From the sequence record NC_054919.1: a stretch of 64,000 nucleotides of DNA; one strand, written 5' to 3'. The notes under the pieces were generated by a model that saw only the letters and a list, made by a program, of their open reading frames with translations, did not search any database and was not told the origin of the DNA. The stretch comes from Escherichia phage vB_EcoM_G4507. Positions 4,503 to 8,761 of this stretch are shown piece after piece (the stretch's first letter is position 1; each line of letters begins with the position of its first letter). The translations under genes were made by a program, and so were the position numbers.

Positions 4503-4808
4503 AAGCCTTGCGGCAACCTTGTCGGGGTTCCACCTGCTAAGGCAAGTGTTTGTACGAAACGCCGGGATTCGAACCCGGTTATTAAGTAGTTGACGCTACT
4601 CAATATTTTAAAAGGCCATATCTCGACCATATCCGAACGTTCCGTCAAAAACGCTACTCGGTTTACGGCAAAGATATTTCCTCGAATCGATAATTCGGTG
4701 CGCCGTTTCTGCTGTGATAGTAAAGAGCCAGAACACAGTAAAACTGTGGGAGGAAACTATACTCCAGGGAACATCAGTCCGACGACTTACCGGTAGCGAC
4801 CCGGTTTC
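4503..4808 (-). ncRNA. candidate structured small stable RNA(s) with a tRNA-like T-arm, between ORF 4809..5159 and the internal protein gene
   Basis: No convincing ORF; minus strand carries GGTTCGAATCC T-loop (plus 4561-4579) flanked by a possible acceptor pairing CGGAACG/CGTTTCG but no canonical D/anticodon arms, several short hairpins, and ends at a hairpin plus U-tract (4473-4502). Placement next to the tRNA array recalls the small stable RNAs of T4 (recollection only). Confidence 0.35.
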
Positions 4809-5159
4809 TTAGTATTCTTTTAAAGCATCAACCTGTTCACGACGTTTACGCCATAAATCAATTACTTCATACGCAGATTCAGCATTTCGAATTGGACGGC
4901 ATTTATATAAAGACTTGTGATTTTGATATTGTGTAGATAACGGAATTTTATCTAAAAGGTCTTTACGTTCAAAATATTCGTAACCATCTAAACCAAATGA
5001 ACGATTTTTGAGAAATTGCCAATGACCAAATTCGTTTTCGACATAAACATAATCTGCATGCTGATAAAGCAAATTAATTACACGTTCAGAAATAACAGTA
5101 TCATTATGATTAAAATAGAATGTTAAATCATGAACTACTAAATAAACATTACCTTTCAT
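4809..5159 (-). CDS. hypothetical protein, 116 aa, immediately downstream of tRNA-Arg
   Basis: Track ORF; ATG at 5157-5159 with GAGGA RBS at 5164-5168, 18 nt after the tRNA-Arg 3' end; no recognisable motifs. Confidence 0.5.
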   Translation of the reverse strand: MKGNVYLVVHDLTFYFNHNDTVISERVINLLYQHADYVYVENEFGHWQFLKNRSFGLDGYEYFERKDLLDKIPLSTQYQNHKSLYKCRPIRNAESAYEVIDLWRKRREQVDALKEY

Positions 5160-5526: not shown

Positions 5527-5613
5527 TGGTGGGGAGTGATGGAGTCGAACCACCCGAGTCGCAATGACAATGAATTTACAGTCCACATCGCTACCTCTAC
5601 GGGATAACTCCCC
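5527..5613 (-). tRNA. type II tRNA with long variable arm, probably tRNA-Tyr (anticodon GTA)
   Basis: Minus strand 87 nt: acceptor GGGGAGT/ACTCCCC, anticodon loop CTGTAAA on a stem with two G-U pairs, variable-arm hairpin GTC-ATTGC-GAC, T-arm GGTGG-TTCGACT-CCATC, encoded CCA; D-arm fold is non-canonical, so isotype is tentative. Confidence 0.55.
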
Positions 5614-6031: not shown

Positions 6032-6118
6032 TGGTGCGAGAAGTGAGACTCGAACCCACAAGGAAATAATTCCGCAGCATTTTAAGTGCTGTGCCTTTAC
6101 CAATTTGACCATTCTCGC
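6032..6118 (-). tRNA. tRNA-Leu (anticodon TAA), type II
   Basis: Minus strand 87 nt: acceptor GCGAGAA/TTCTCGC, anticodon stem CAGCA/TGCTG, loop CTTAAAA, long variable arm, T-arm GTGGG-TTCGAGT-CTCAC, encoded CCA. Confidence 0.8.
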
Positions 6119-6119
6119 G

Positions 6120-6192
6120 CTGGGAATAAAGGACTCGAACCTTTGCATCCTGGAATCAAAATCCAGTGCCTTACCAACTTGGCTAATTCCCA
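6120..6192 (-). tRNA. tRNA-Gln (anticodon TTG), CCA not encoded
   Basis: Minus strand 73 nt: acceptor TGGGAAT/ATTCCCA, anticodon stem CTGGA/TCCAG, loop TTTTGAT, T-arm AAAGG-TTCGAGT-CCTTT; only 1 nt separates it from tRNA-Leu. Confidence 0.75.
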
Positions 6193-6289
6193 ATTATTAA
6201 CAAAGGCTCTTTAGCAAGAACCCTTGATGATAGAGGGTATTAATCAGTGCGGTATGAGTTAATAATAACAAATAATTCTTAAAGCATAT

Positions 6290-6577
6290 TTACCATTTAT
6301 GATAATACATATTTACGATGCATTCAAGGCCCAAAGGATTCCTGAAAATATCATATTCAAGAGGACCTTTTTCTGTTTCAATAAAGAAATCAAAATTTAC
6401 TGTATTAAATTTACGGTCTTCCTTCACTAATTTAACTTGGGAAGATGAACGGTCAACATAAACCTTTTCAACTTCAAAACACGTTAAAACGCCATAATCA
6501 TCAATCAAGGCTTTAGCCGCGTCTTGATCATATTTATATCCATTTTCAATGGACGATACTTTTGCATAAAGAATCAT
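6290..6577 (-). CDS. hypothetical protein (accessory ORF between tRNA array and ipI)
   Basis: Track ORF 6290..6583 begins at GTG; first ATG (MILYAKVSS) at 6575-6577 with GGAG RBS; directly follows stop of upstream ORF (TGA-TA-ATG). Confidence 0.45.
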   Translation of the reverse strand: MILYAKVSSIENGYKYDQDAAKALIDDYGVLTCFEVEKVYVDRSSSQVKLVKEDRKFNTVNFDFFIETEKGPLEYDIFRNPLGLECIVNMYYHKW

Positions 6578-6579
6578 TA

Positions 6580-6960
6580 TCACACTCCGTAGTCTATCTT
6601 GACCAATCTACCTTTGTAGTAGCCAAAGTTCTTTGGAAAGGCATCATACTCAAAGAAATCACGGTCAAGCGTTCTGCATTCATCACCATCAACATCATTA
6701 TAGAGCTTTTGCAAATCAGATTTAAAAAGCTCCTTATCCTCAACTGGCTCTGCTTTGTGCATCACAACCATGAGACCAAATCTGTTTGAGTATGCTATTG
6801 GGCATAGGTATTTGTTATCATACCCCTTCCACTGACCTTCTGTAAGATTGCTGAGCATACCCTGCACGAAGTGTTTCCATGTCTTGGGGATAGGGAACTT
6901 AATAGCATACTTATGTGTTAGTAGTACCCATCTGGTTCCACCCGATTTAATTAATTTCAT
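6580..6960 (-). CDS. hypothetical protein (accessory ORF)
   Basis: Track ORF 126 aa; ATG at 6958-6960; no motif recognised. Confidence 0.5.
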   Translation of the reverse strand: MKLIKSGGTRWVLLTHKYAIKFPIPKTWKHFVQGMLSNLTEGQWKGYDNKYLCPIAYSNRFGLMVVMHKAEPVEDKELFKSDLQKLYNDVDGDECRTLDRDFFEYDAFPKNFGYYKGRLVKIDYGV

Positions 6961-6984
6961 AGTCTCAGCTACCTCAATATTAAT

Positions 6985-7032
6985 TTAAGCAATATCATTC
7001 CTGTAAGGTAGTACTTTAGCATAAAGAATCAT
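6985..7032 (-). pseudogene. 15-codon remnant ORF duplicating the 5' end of the 6290..6577 gene
   Basis: Minus strand ATGATTCTTTATGCTAAAGTA.. (MILYAKVLPYRNDIA*) begins 2 nt after the stop of ORF 7035..7445; first 7 codons and the TGA-NN-ATG junction match the start of ORF 6290..6577. Confidence 0.5.
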
Positions 7033-7034
7033 TG

Positions 7035-7445
7035 TCAGCCTCTATCAACGATAGCATGAGTATGGGCATTTACGATTTGCCACCAGTCGAAACGATTGAA
7101 ACCATAATCTGGTTTATTTTCATTTTCTTTAATGATATCACGCAGCTTATCTTCTGTTTCAGCATACGCAATTAAATCATCATATCCACCACAAGGGTAA
7201 TAATTATCACCTGCGAATAAAAGAAAATTTACCTTAGATGGATTTACATAATAATGGTCTTTAGGATATTTAGTTCCTCTCCAATCAGTTACTTCAACAT
7301 AACGGTAAGAAAATCCATTTTTACTTTCAATCCAACTCCACGCTTCAAAAGGAGTATTAAAAACTTTATCAGGTATTAAATTACCTTCAAAATGAGAAGG
7401 ATTTGCATAATCCCCAGCATAAACATAATATTCGTTAATACTCAT
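7035..7445 (-). CDS. hypothetical protein (accessory ORF)
   Basis: Track ORF 136 aa; ATG at 7443-7445 immediately after stop of upstream ORF, AAGGTGA RBS. Confidence 0.5.
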   Translation of the reverse strand: MSINEYYVYAGDYANPSHFEGNLIPDKVFNTPFEAWSWIESKNGFSYRYVEVTDWRGTKYPKDHYYVNPSKVNFLLFAGDNYYPCGGYDDLIAYAETEDKLRDIIKENENKPDYGFNRFDWWQIVNAHTHAIVDRG

Positions 7446-7631
7446 TTATTCACCTTTAGAAATTTTATCCATAACGATAGCAATTAAACCAATTAAAAAT
7501 GCTACTACAAGTGAAAACGCATTTTCTGCTGTAGTTAATAATCCGCATATAAATCCAACAAACATTGAAAAACTAAAAGCAGAAGCAGAAATTGCAATAG
7601 CAACATTTCGAATTAATTCACAGCGTTTCAT
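7446..7631 (-). CDS. small hydrophobic protein (accessory ORF)
   Basis: Track ORF 61 aa; ATG at 7629-7631 with GAGGAG RBS; mostly hydrophobic; own early promoter upstream. Confidence 0.5.
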   Translation of the reverse strand: MKRCELIRNVAIAISASAFSFSMFVGFICGLLTTAENAFSLVVAFLIGLIAIVMDKISKGE

Positions 7632-7651
7632 TTTATTCTCCTCAGTAGTTG

Positions 7652-7688
7652 ATAGGGTAATAGTATCACAACTAAAACCCTATGTAAA
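7652..7688 (-). promoter_or_regulatory. early promoter with flanking inverted repeat, upstream of ORF 7446..7631
   Basis: Minus strand CACAAAGTTGTTTACA (-35 at 7683-7688) - 17 nt - TACTAT (7660-7665); inverted repeat ATAGGGT/ACCCTAT at 7677-7683 and 7652-7658. Confidence 0.6.
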
Positions 7689-7707
7689 CAACTTTGTGAA
7701 AAATTTA

Positions 7708-7992
7708 TTACAAAAGATTTTTAGCAATAATTTTAAGCTGAGCTACTGAAATATGCTTGGCTTTAAACAAAGCAGTTTCTTCAGCAGGGGAGATAATGAT
7801 TGTAGCACCATCTTTCTTAGCGGACCATCCATCACCCAGGTAAACAGTACCTTTAACTTCTTCGCCATCAACCAGGCTAATCATCGGTTTACCTTCACGT
7901 CCTTTGTTTGCTTTAATAACTTCAGAAGTAAGGGTCGCTTCAGTCAAAGTAGAAGCGTTAGTGGTTGAAGTGAATTCTTGATAAGTTTTCAT
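7708..7992 (-). CDS. ipI: internal head protein I (packaged anti-restriction protein family)
   Basis: Track ORF 94 aa; N-terminus MKTYQEFTSTT.. matches the internal-protein capsid-targeting sequence; size matches the ~95-aa T4 IPI precursor; own early promoter upstream. Confidence 0.75.
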   Translation of the reverse strand: MKTYQEFTSTTNASTLTEATLTSEVIKANKGREGKPMISLVDGEEVKGTVYLGDGWSAKKDGATIIISPAEETALFKAKHISVAQLKIIAKNLL

Positions 7993-8013
7993 TTTATTTT
8001 CCTAATTAATTTT

Positions 8014-8051
8014 GATGAGGTAATAGTATCACTACCTCATCAGCATGTAAA
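8014..8051 (-). promoter_or_regulatory. early promoter with flanking 9-bp inverted repeat, upstream of ipI
   Basis: Minus strand CACAAAGTTGTTTACA (-35 at 8046-8051) - 17 nt - TACTAT (8023-8028); inverted repeat GATGAGGTA/TACCTCATC at 8033-8041 and 8014-8022. Confidence 0.6.
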
Positions 8052-8064
8052 CAACTTTGTGAAA

Positions 8065-8761
<697 letters not shown>

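What the first reader, a model, noticed from the sequence alone, without database searches (positions are those of the whole stretch)
6290..7631. Block of four uncharacterised ORFs between the tRNA array and ipI: candidate accessory or anti-defence cargo
Four small minus-strand ORFs (95, 126, 136 and 61 aa), tightly coupled, occupy a position that is variable among T4 relatives (T4 has a seg endonuclease in this region as I recall). They sit next to ipI, a packaged anti-restriction protein. None carries a motif I recognise; the 61-aa product is hydrophobic.
Basis: inference. Interest (0 to 1): 0.45.

Follow-up and report, generated by a model that had tools for sequence, protein, structure and literature searches.

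The report
Phage mini-kinase inserted among T4 genes
Three of the four small genes are the long-known, still uncharacterised T4 genes trna.2, trna.3 and trna.4, but the fourth is a rare foreign insertion encoding a 126-residue protein that looks like a protein kinase cut off just after its catalytic centre, one member of a large phage family that no database names.

Summary
The window is Escherichia phage ECP52, a T4-like phage. All four minus-strand ORFs exist at the stated coordinates.

- **Known genes:** three are T4 Trna.2 (93% identical), Trna.3 (99%) and Trna.4 (98%). Each occurs in about 760-800 phage records, so they are conserved genes of unknown function, not variable cargo.
- **The insertion:** the 126-aa ORF (6580-6960) is absent from T4. 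It lies in a 455-bp, GC-richer insert flanked by a 31-nt direct repeat, and only 8 records carry it at over 95% identity.
- **What it looks like:** its confident AlphaFold model (pLDDT 91) matches only protein-kinase-like folds. The residues K21, E41 and D123 are invariant across 111 diverse relatives. Position 106 is always D or E, and position 111 is N or S in 110 of 111. The protein ends three residues after the DFG-equivalent "DYG", so it lacks the activation segment and the C-lobe helices.
- **The family:** 1,012 cluster representatives, nearly all 105-140 aa, with no Pfam, NCBIfam, PADLOC or PHROG function and no conserved neighbour.
- **Context:** an early-type promoter precedes the block, which lies directly downstream of acb1 (57B) and ipI.

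I conclude it is an early-expressed minimal ATP-dependent phosphotransferase. Its substrate is unknown, and a counter-defence role is plausible but untested.

The parts
7626..7701 (-). Early-promoter-like cassette upstream of trna.4: TTTACA-17-TACTAT with TG (7660-7688), a stem-loop enclosing the -10 element, and a ribosome-binding site. A second copy lies at 7987-8064 upstream of ipI.
   Evidence: Promoter scan. Direct repeats D1 and D3, 81-84% identical. Stem-loops with z-scores of -2.8 and -3.3; by my reading of those folds, the two copies differ on both sides of the stem. This resembles the PeSL cassettes of PMC2839356 and PMC4122927.
7446..7631 (-). trna.4: 61-aa, 6.5-kDa protein with two hydrophobic segments, a probable small membrane protein.
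   Evidence: 98% identical to T4 Trna.4. phrog_1692, E 1.5e-34. Hydropathy profile. Found in 787 phage records.
7035..7445 (-). trna.3: 136-aa acidic protein of unknown function. Its conserved C-terminal module is NFLLFAGDNYYPxGGYxDL.
   Evidence: 99% identical to T4 Trna.3. phrog_1411, E 3.4e-50. Homologues carry a precomputed PF26894 hit. Alignment A5. The AlphaFold model is only moderate: pLDDT 70, pTM 0.47.
6985..7032 (-). A 15-codon remnant ORF (MILYAKVLPYRNDIA*). Its first 23 nt duplicate the trna.2 start; the rest is foreign leader sequence.
   Evidence: Read directly from the sequence. Alignment with T4 and PhiZZ30. The leader is homologous to the one upstream of the phi G17 copy.
7012..7042 (.). 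Left copy of the 31-nt direct repeat that flanks the 455-bp insertion.
   Evidence: the repeat finder family D2: 87% identity, spacing 455.
6580..6960 (-). The 126-aa (14.9 kDa, pI 9.0) minimal protein-kinase-like protein. Key codons: G7/T9/R10 loop; K21 (6898-6900); E41 (6838-6840); D106 (6643-6645); N111 (6628-6630); D123 of the 'DYG' motif (6592-6594). The stop codon follows three residues after D123.
6557..6587 (.). Right copy of the 31-nt direct repeat. It spans the kinase stop codon and the trna.2 start.
   Evidence: the repeat finder family D2.
6290..6577 (-). trna.2: 95-aa acidic protein of unknown function.
   Evidence: 93% identical to T4 Trna.2. phrog_2023, E 6.3e-47. Found in 802 phage records. 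T4 Trna.2 was enriched in the DRT1 pulldown (PMC13275509).
7708..7992 (-). Context: ipI, the injected inhibitor of a GmrSD-type restriction enzyme.
   Evidence: Pfam IPI_T4, E 3.5e-51. PDB 2JUB, E 1e-42. Function as described in PMC12373910.
8065..8520 (-). Context: 57B, which is Acb1, the anti-CBASS phosphodiesterase.
   Evidence: PDB 7T26 'Acb1', E 1.3e-61.

Best explanation
The block is the conserved T-even gene set trna.4-trna.3-trna.2, preceded by a T4-type early promoter. In ECP52 and six related phages a foreign 455-bp cassette has been spliced into it by recombination at short homologies.

The cassette encodes a stand-alone, minimal protein-kinase-like enzyme of 126 residues. It keeps Hanks subdomains I-VII:
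- a glycine-loop equivalent (G7-x-T9-R10);
- the beta3 lysine (K21);
- the alphaC glutamate (E41);
- a catalytic loop D106-x-x-x-K-N111 (family consensus D-x-K-P-x-N);
- the Mg-binding D123-Y-G.

It terminates there, so it has no activation segment and no alphaF-alphaI helices.

I propose that it is made early in infection, binds ATP-Mg in the cleft, and transfers the gamma-phosphate to a target. That target would be recognised without a canonical C-lobe: a small molecule, a nucleic acid, or a protein that docks on or completes the enzyme. On this reading it serves host take-over or counter-defence.

**Shown here:** gene identities, the insertion anatomy, foreign composition, purifying selection, predicted fold, the motif conservation pattern, family size, and lack of a conserved partner.

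**Inferred:** early expression (from the promoter consensus, and on the assumption that the promoter upstream of trna.4 drives the whole block), ATP binding and phosphotransfer (from fold and motifs), and biological role (from neighbourhood and from the T7 kinase precedent).
For: **Identity and insertion**
- The window is 100% identical to ECP52.
- T4 lacks the ORF. The insert is flanked by a 31-nt repeat with 455-nt spacing.
- The leader upstream of the ORF is homologous to that in phi G17, a member of Schitoviridae.
- GC is 40.4% and GC3 44%, against GC3 of 11-25% in neighbouring genes.
- Relatives at 60-80% identity occur in Vequintavirinae, Schitoviridae, Drexlerviridae and Felixounavirus.

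**Fold**
- AlphaFold pLDDT 91.
- Foldseek against PDB: the listed hits are almost all protein kinases, plus an aminoglycoside phosphotransferase and WbdD, with TTK at 7e-4.
- BFVD top hit: RP12 'Protein kinase domain-containing protein', 3.7e-9.

**Motifs**
- K21, P23, E41 and D123 are invariant in 111 sequences that average 26% column identity. Position 106 is D in 70 and E in 41. Position 111 is N in 74 and S in 36.
- The family profile aligns 'vdakpenfG...kiDYg' onto TTK 'HSDLKPANF...LIDFG' and onto PKA 'YRDLKPEN...TDFG'.

**Not a fragment**
- 1,012 cluster representatives at E<=1e-3. Nearly all are 105-140 aa and stop 0-3 residues after DYG.
- dN/dS is 0.06-0.24.

**Expression and context**
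- An early-type promoter precedes trna.4, and no terminator was detected in the scanned stretch 6100-8200.
- Acb1 and IpI lie immediately upstream.
- Phage kinases of the T7 family disarm host defences (PMC13645617, PMC12345140).
Against: - No sequence method reaches significance against any known kinase family. Pfam, NCBIfam and PADLOC return nothing. The profile against PDB gives E of about 0.7.
- The kinase assignment therefore rests on a predicted structure plus a motif pattern.
- I know of no characterised kinase that works without the alphaF helix and activation segment. Stability and substrate recognition are unexplained.
- I could not inspect the model's coordinates, so the K21-E41 salt bridge and the cleft geometry were not measured.
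- There is no conserved gene neighbour to point to a substrate.
- The anti-defence role is guilt by association only.
- Only about 1% of T-even-type phages carry the gene, so it is dispensable.
Confidence: 0.55

Rival explanations
1. The 126-aa protein is a non-catalytic nucleotide-binding module: a pseudokinase, a sponge or a switch. It would use the kinase-like cleft to bind ATP or another nucleotide, possibly an immune signal, or to clamp a host protein, without transferring phosphate.
For: The invariant residues K21, E41 and D123 are those that bind nucleotide and Mg, whereas the catalytic-loop positions vary (D or E at 106, N or S at 111). The whole substrate-binding C-lobe is missing. 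From general knowledge, small phage proteins that sequester nucleotide signals are a known counter-defence strategy. Acb1, which destroys such signals, is encoded nearby.
Against: Position 106 is always acidic. Most members keep the D-x-K-P-x-N loop typical of active Ser/Thr kinases, with K at position 108 in 83 of 111. From general knowledge, pseudokinases usually lose at least one of the K, D or D residues.
Confidence: 0.2
2. It is an RNA or tRNA kinase, analogous to archaeal ArkI. It would modify or repair tRNA or other RNA during infection, for example to counter anticodon nucleases.
Against: Across 17 loci from different phages, nothing RNA-related recurs next to the gene. The tRNA adjacency is inherited from the T4 backbone. 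The JS10 site is, from my memory of the T4 gene map (not checked here), another variable slot between 24.3 and rnlB. ArkI's signature HGQ and DFE motifs and its alpha6/alpha7 RNA-binding helices are absent. ArkI is not a better structural match than ordinary protein kinases.
Confidence: 0.1
3. This is the first reader's reading: the whole four-gene block is anti-defence cargo, an extension of the acb1-ipI counter-defence cluster.
For: Two proven anti-defence genes lie directly upstream. An early-type promoter precedes the block. Trna.2 co-purified with DRT1 (PMC13275509). All four genes lack any housekeeping homology.
Against: trna.2, trna.3 and trna.4 are conserved in about 800 genomes at a fixed position. 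That is not the pattern of rapidly exchanged anti-defence cargo. There is no similarity to known systems, and no phenotype is reported. The DRT1 authors did not follow up Trna.2.
Confidence: 0.25
4. The 126-aa ORF is a decaying fragment of a longer kinase gene, or a chance ORF with no function.
For: It stops just after the DFG-equivalent motif. A few relatives carry extensions of 160-270 aa.
Against: More than a thousand cluster representatives share the same length and the same end point. dN/dS is 0.06-0.24. The fold prediction is confident. The extensions are not homologous to a kinase C-lobe and are not conserved among themselves.
Confidence: 0.03

Closest known systems
Eukaryotic-type protein kinase / protein-kinase-like (PKL) catalytic core (e.g. 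TTK/Mps1, PknB, JAK)
   Different: It ends three residues after the DFG aspartate, so Hanks subdomains VIII-XI (activation segment, APE, alphaF-alphaI) are absent. The glycine loop is G-x-T-R rather than GxGxxG. There is no significant sequence match to Pfam Pkinase or any other PKL family.
Reduced or minimal kinases: archaeal tRNA kinase ArkI, Shigella effector OspG, Bud32, RIO
   Different: The chains matched here are all longer (ArkI 171-173, Bud32 178 and OspG 169 residues). ArkI retains subdomains IX and XI (PMC9095486), and from general knowledge the others also keep C-lobe helices after the DFG motif. The phage protein has none. ArkI's HGQ and DFE motifs are not shared. No sequence relationship was detected.
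Phage T7 gp0.7 kinase (T7K) and JSS1_004
   Same: A phage-encoded, early-expressed kinase-fold protein found almost only in phages. It sets the precedent that phage kinases disarm host defences (PMC13645617, PMC12345140).
   Different: There is no detectable homology (hhalign probability below 1%). T7K has a DPV motif rather than DYG, is 359 aa, and has a C-terminal DNA-binding shut-off domain. When the T7K study searched the BASEL collection for protein kinases, it reported studying only four T7K-homologue phages plus P1vir. Bas45 (PaulHMueller) in that collection carries this gene.
T4 Trna.2, Trna.3 and Trna.4 (ORF2-4 of the ipI-tRNA region, record X03016)
   Same: 93%, 99% and 98% identical, in the same order and position between ipI and tRNA-Gln.
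   Different: ECP52 has the 455-bp kinase cassette between trna.3 and trna.2. Other relatives carry further extra ORFs after trna.2.
PeSL-type regulatory cassettes and hyperplastic regions of T4-type genomes
   Same: A duplicated 78-nt unit of early promoter, stem-loop and RBS lies in front of both ipI and trna.4, as described for modular shuffling in PMC2839356 and PMC4122927.
   Different: The kinase cassette itself is not bounded by these cassettes. Its junctions are a 31-nt repeat built from the trna.3-stop / trna.2-start junction.

Membership tests
Protein-kinase-like (PKL) superfamily | Bilobal kinase fold: N-lobe beta-sheet with an alphaC helix, a hinge, and a C-lobe core carrying the catalytic and Mg-binding loops | tested here: met
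Protein-kinase-like (PKL) superfamily | Beta3 lysine and alphaC glutamate (ATP phosphate anchoring) | tested here: met
   K21 and E41 are invariant in 111 of 111 sequences. They lie in predicted strand 18-23 and helix 28-42. Salt-bridge geometry was not measured.
Protein-kinase-like (PKL) superfamily | Catalytic loop with an acidic base and Asn (HRD-x-K-x-x-N) | tested here: met
   Position 106 is D in 70 and E in 41 sequences. Position 111 is N in 74 and S in 36. K occupies position 108 in 83 of 111. The loop aligns to TTK [8 protein letters not shown] and PKA YRDLKPEN. The His/Arg of HRD is not conserved.
Protein-kinase-like (PKL) superfamily | DFG-type Mg-binding aspartate | tested here: met
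   D123 is invariant in 111 of 111. Y124 occurs in 100 of 111 and G125 in 98 of 111. The motif aligns to the TTK and PKA DFG.
Protein-kinase-like (PKL) superfamily | Glycine-rich loop GxGxxG | tested here: inconclusive
   Only G7 is conserved (110 of 111), followed by T9 and R10 (G-x-T-R) between predicted strands 1 and 2. This is an atypical loop.
Canonical eukaryotic-type protein kinases (Pfam Pkinase) | Subdomains VIII-XI: activation segment/APE, the alphaF helix and alphaG-alphaI | tested here: not met
   The protein ends at residue 126, three residues after D123. The same end point holds across the family.
Canonical eukaryotic-type protein kinases (Pfam Pkinase) | Significant match to the family profile | tested here: not met
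   No Pfam hit for the ORF or for 16 relatives. The only traces are ABC1 at E 0.025-0.26 on the catalytic-loop/DFG stretch.
Protein-kinase-like (PKL) superfamily | ATP binding and phosphotransfer activity | not testable with these tools
   Requires biochemistry.
T7 gp0.7 (T7K) / JSS1_004 phage kinases | Sequence homology to the T7K kinase domain, a DPV motif, and a C-terminal shut-off domain | tested here: not met
   hhalign probability 0.1-0.5%. The motif is DYG, and the protein has no C-terminal domain.
ArkI / AQ578 RNA kinases | HGQ catalytic loop, DFE metal loop, and subdomains IX and XI with RNA-binding helices (PMC9095486) | tested here: not met
   The motifs here are D-x-x-x-K-N and DYG, and there is no sequence after subdomain VII. 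The resemblance is at fold level only.
T4 Trna.2 / Trna.3 / Trna.4 | High sequence identity and conserved position between ipI and tRNA-Gln | tested here: met
   93%, 99% and 98% identity. Synteny. PHROG E-values 6e-47, 3e-50 and 1.5e-34.
Known anti-phage-defence or anti-defence protein families | Match to a curated model or a solved anti-defence protein | tested here: not met
   PADLOC, Pfam, NCBIfam and PDB sequence searches are negative for the ORFs tested; trna.4 was not searched against PDB. Only the neighbours 57B/Acb1 and ipI match.

The most novel reading that the evidence does not exclude
The ~120-residue phage family represented by ECP52 6580-6960 would be the smallest self-sufficient protein-kinase-like enzyme known to me, comprising Hanks subdomains I-VII only. 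It would be catalytically active, either on a non-canonical substrate (an immune-signalling nucleotide, RNA or another small molecule) or by borrowing a host protein as its missing C-lobe. It would act as a widespread, horizontally mobile counter-defence or host-take-over factor in at least five lineages of enterobacterial phages and in many jumbo phages.
Probability: 0.3. Interest if true: 0.8.

Novelty: new variant of a known kind. Interest (0 to 1): 0.6.

Why it matters
- **For kinase biochemistry:** if active, this family would redefine the minimal unit of the protein-kinase fold, because catalysis would proceed without the alphaF helix, activation segment or substrate-binding lobe.
- **For phage biology:** it would add a second, unrelated phage kinase family to the T7 gp0.7 family, which was recently shown to disarm bacterial defences.
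- **Scale:** the family is large (1,012 cluster representatives at 50% identity) and unnamed in Pfam, NCBIfam, PADLOC and PHROGs (where its family has no assigned function). It spreads between unrelated coliphage families.
- **Testability:** one carrier, Bas45 (PaulHMueller), is in the widely used BASEL collection. The hypothesis can be tested directly by deletion, phosphoproteomics and plating on defence libraries.
- **Annotation:** for the other three ORFs, the result is a correction. They are T4 trna.2, trna.3 and trna.4, conserved rather than variable. Trna.2 carries one literature lead, its co-purification with DRT1.

Tried and rejected
**Hypotheses rejected**
1. *Split kinase:* the idea that the downstream gene supplies the missing C-lobe. 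The genes downstream in phi G17, A5-4 and AH04 are not homologous to trna.2, to each other, or to the Kc263 extension. Clustering ORFs from 17 loci found only the kinase itself shared.
2. *Kinase plus trna.2 as a two-gene module:* rejected for the same reason.
3. *Relationship to the T7 gp0.7 kinase:* no signal.

**Searches that returned nothing**
4. Pfam, NCBIfam and PADLOC searches of all four ORFs returned nothing above threshold. PDB sequence searches of the 126-aa ORF, trna.3 and trna.2 were also negative. Pfam on long or annotated relatives was empty apart from sub-threshold ABC1 traces.
5. Scans for close relatives in IMG/VR and in 185,579 bacterial and archaeal genomes found none. The broad alignment A3 was too diverse for that tool.
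6. Literature searches for a described phage mini-kinase, phrog_4301, or a function for trna.2, trna.3 or trna.4 found only the DRT1 pulldown.
7. No intrinsic terminator and no Rfam family other than tRNAs lies in or beside the block.

**Limits on what could be run**
8. The afdb50 fold library was unavailable.
9. The trna.3 model was only moderate (pLDDT 70, pTM 0.47, and the conserved motif below 50).

**Considered by eye and dropped**
10. A MotA-box-like TGCTTAA in the leader. It has no properly spaced -10 element and is not conserved in phi G17.
Full report

The region is 100% identical to Escherichia phage ECP52 (ON782582.1), a T4-like phage; its nearest annotated relatives are Tequatrovirus. 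It is about 95% identical to T4 over 79% of a 2-kb query.

ipI follows at 7708-7992 (Pfam IPI_T4 3.5e-51; PDB 2JUB 1e-42). A tRNA array precedes the block. Coupling is tight except for a 74-nt gap between the 136-aa and 126-aa ORFs. The 61-aa product has two hydrophobic segments. T4's seg endonuclease, segB, lies inside the tRNA array and not in this block.

**Three of the four ORFs are old acquaintances**

- They are T4 Trna.2 (93% identical), Trna.3 (99%) and Trna.4 (98%), in the T4 order ipI-trna.4-trna.3-trna.2-tRNA-Gln.
- They correspond to ORF2-4 of the X03016 record.
- tblastn finds them in 802, 764 and 787 phage records. They are therefore conserved genes of T-even-type phages, not variable cargo.
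- None matches Pfam, NCBIfam or PADLOC. PDB sequence searches, run for trna.2 and trna.3 only, were also negative. PHROGs lists all three as unknown function.
- Trna.3 homologues carry a precomputed PF26894 hit, a family absent from the local Pfam copy. The most conserved part of Trna.3 is NFLLFAGDNYYPxGGYxDL. This module also occurs as stand-alone 67-93-aa PHROG families and in a Bacillus phage.
- The Trna.3 AlphaFold model was only moderate (pLDDT 70, pTM 0.47), so I assign no fold.
- The only functional lead in the literature searched concerns Trna.2. Trna.2 and Inh were the only two T4 proteins enriched with wild-type DRT1 over its RT-dead control. The authors did not pursue this (PMC13275509).

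**The fourth ORF is an insertion**

T4 goes directly from the trna.3 stop to the trna.2 start. ECP52 and PhiZZ30 have 455 extra bases there.

- The insert is bounded by a 31-nt direct repeat (6557-6587 and 7012-7042; 87% identity, spacing 455). The repeat consists of a stop codon, two bases, and the first 23 nt of trna.2.
- The left copy opens a 15-codon remnant ORF (6985-7032).
- The rest of the 74-nt leader is homologous to the sequence upstream of the same gene in phi G17, a member of Schitoviridae. This indicates that leader plus ORF moved as a unit and was joined at short homologies.
- The gene is compositionally foreign: GC 40.4% and GC3 44%, against GC3 of 11-25% in the flanking genes.
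- Only 8 phage records carry it at over 95% identity: ECP52, PhiZZ30 (two records), G10400, vB_Eco_EL, ESh17, PaulHMueller (Bas45) and QOTSP.
- Copies at 60-80% identity occur in Vequintavirinae (A5-4), Schitoviridae (phi G17, Moonfish), Drexlerviridae (GaoY1-9D) and Felixounavirus (SPJ41). More distant copies occur in many jumbo phages.
- dN/dS against these copies is 0.06-0.24 where synonymous sites are not saturated.

**What the 126-aa protein looks like**

A 25-sequence alignment gave a confident AlphaFold model (pLDDT 91, pTM 0.80). Its elements in order are three strands, a helix (28-42), two strands, a long helix (76-92), a short helix, and two strands.

Structure searches:
- Foldseek against PDB returned protein kinases for nearly all listed hits. 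The best was TTK at 7e-4, and the ArkI RNA kinase gave the best target-normalised score.
- Against predicted viral structures, the top hit is Ralstonia phage RP12 'Protein kinase domain-containing protein' (3.7e-9). The following hits are uncharacterised jumbo-phage proteins.
- A few depositors have labelled relatives as serine/threonine kinase.

Residue conservation:
- In a 111-sequence alignment averaging 26% column identity, K21, P23, E41 and D123 are invariant.
- G7, R10, V12, G34, N38 and G113 are nearly invariant.
- Position 106 is always acidic (70 D, 41 E).
- Position 111 is N (74) or S (36).
- Position 108 is K in 83 sequences.
- The family profile aligns 'vdakpenfGylngklvkiDYg' to TTK '[22 protein letters not shown]'. 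Both alignments are sub-significant statistically but exact in motif register.

These residues are the beta3 Lys, the alphaC Glu, the catalytic-loop Asp and Asn, and the DFG Asp of a kinase.

**What is unusual about it**

The protein stops three residues after D123. This is not an accident of this copy.

- A profile search of 1.84 billion cluster representatives found 1,012 relatives at E<=1e-3, and 413 at E<=1e-10.
- Nearly all are 105-140 aa, and nearly all end 0-3 residues after [IVL]-D-Y-G.
- The rare extensions are N-terminal, or are C-terminal tails with no kinase-like match. One of them may be an annotation artefact.

In Hanks terms the family has subdomains I-VII and lacks VIII-XI. For comparison, ArkI is already considered reduced, yet it lacks only VIII and X (PMC9095486).

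No Pfam, NCBIfam or PADLOC model covers the family. phrog_4301 is 'unknown function'. No close relative was found in 185,579 bacterial and archaeal genomes. No relationship to the T7 gp0.7 kinase was detectable.

The recent T7 kinase study searched the BASEL collection for protein kinases and reported studying only four T7K-homologue phages plus P1vir, which carries Doc (PMC13645617). Bas45 in that collection carries this gene.

**Context and likely mode of action**

A 78-nt cassette precedes both ipI (7987-8064) and trna.4 (7626-7701). It comprises TTTACA-17-TACTAT with TG, a stem-loop enclosing the -10 element, and an RBS. This resembles the PeSL regulatory cassettes of T4-type phages (PMC2839356, PMC4122927). 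No terminator-like site was found in the scanned stretch 6100-8200. I therefore infer, but have not shown, that the kinase is expressed early by read-through from the trna.4 promoter.

Immediately upstream lie two proven counter-defence genes: ipI, and 57B, which is Acb1 (PDB 7T26, 1.3e-61).

The kinase has no conserved neighbour. In 17 loci from different phages, only the kinase itself is shared. It always sits among small unannotated genes. In SPJ41 it lies beside an HNH endonuclease in a split polymerase gene, and in JS10 it is directly upstream of rnlB. The family is basic, with a median pI of 9.0.

My best reading is a stand-alone, early, minimal ATP-dependent phosphotransferase whose target is recognised without a canonical C-lobe. 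The T7K/JSS1_004 precedent (PMC13645617, PMC12345140) and the Acb1-IpI neighbourhood make host take-over or counter-defence the most likely role. That step is inference only.

**Rivals**

- A non-catalytic nucleotide binder is the main alternative. The strictly invariant residues are those that bind nucleotide and Mg, and the substrate lobe is missing. Against it, the acidic residue at 106 and the common D-x-K-P-x-N loop argue for catalysis.
- An RNA or tRNA kinase is suggested by the tRNA array, the rnlB adjacency in JS10 and the ArkI hit. However, no RNA-related gene recurs beside the family, and ArkI's signature motifs are absent.
- A gene fragment is excluded by the family-wide architecture and by purifying selection.
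One gene is cargo and three are conserved. The anti-defence idea rests on neighbourhood and on one pulldown.

**Verdict**

The notable content is a single gene. It is a horizontally mobile member of a large, undescribed phage family with a protein-kinase-like fold truncated at the DFG motif. That makes it a new variant of a known kind. Activity, substrate and biological role remain to be shown. Bas45 offers a direct experimental route.

Noticed in passing
window 8065-8520 (-): The gene next to ipI (T4 57B, labelled 'RNA ligase' in RefSeq) is Acb1, the anti-CBASS phosphodiesterase (PDB 7T26, E 1.3e-61). The block therefore adjoins two proven counter-defence genes, not one.
   Followed up: yes
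window 7626-7701 and 7987-8064: A 78-nt cassette of early promoter, stem-loop and RBS is duplicated in front of trna.4 and ipI. By my reading of the two folds, the stems differ on both sides (z-scores -2.8 and -3.3). It resembles the PeSL shuffling cassettes of T4-type phages.
   Followed up: partly
window 6985-7032 (-), with repeats at 6557-6587 and 7012-7042: A 15-codon remnant ORF, made of a duplicated trna.2 start fused to foreign leader sequence. It marks the junction of the 455-bp insertion.
   Followed up: yes
window 4809-5159 (-): A 116-aa ORF (phrog_3355, unknown function) lies inside the tRNA array, roughly where T4 has the homing endonuclease segB. The array also has a different tRNA complement from T4: His, Asn, Tyr and Met are present, and Ile is absent.
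   Followed up: no
window 4552-4645 and 5527-5613 (-): ARAGORN calls a 94-nt 'tRNA-Lys' and an 87-nt tRNA-Tyr that Rfam does not recover at gathering score. The Lys call is doubtful, since T4 has rnaC/rnaD in that area. PhiZZ30's annotated array includes a tRNA-Tyr in the same order (Asn-Tyr-Met).
   Followed up: partly
L014 (Escherichia phage JS10) 2983-3351: The JS10 homologue of the mini-kinase is immediately upstream of rnlB (RNA ligase 2), with a 1-nt gap. From my memory of the T4 gene map, this slot holds gene 24.2 in T4.
   Followed up: partly
L013 (Salmonella phage SPJ41) 3001-3384; L011 (phage A5-4) 2956-3381: In these phages the mini-kinase lies beside pieces annotated as a split DNA polymerase gene. 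In SPJ41 it is a lone opposite-strand gene next to an HNH endonuclease, which suggests it travels with or lands in homing-endonuclease hot spots.
   Followed up: no
L009 (Kosakonia phage Kc263) 2950-3753: The 267-aa 'PknA' annotation overlaps, in another frame, a 155-aa ORF homologous to AH04 gene 187. Its C-terminal extension beyond DYG may therefore be an annotation artefact.
   Followed up: partly
window 7035-7445 (-), residues 73-111: The most conserved module of Trna.3 (NFLLFAGDNYYPxGGYxDL...) recurs as stand-alone small PHROG families and in Bacillus phage Flapjack. It is also the least confident part of the AlphaFold model.
   Followed up: partly
L004 (Escherichia phage PaulHMueller, Bas45) 1488-1868; L005, L006: Relatives that carry the kinase also have one to three additional small ORFs between trna.2 and tRNA-Gln. 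The stretch downstream of trna.3 is thus the truly variable part of the locus.
   Followed up: no
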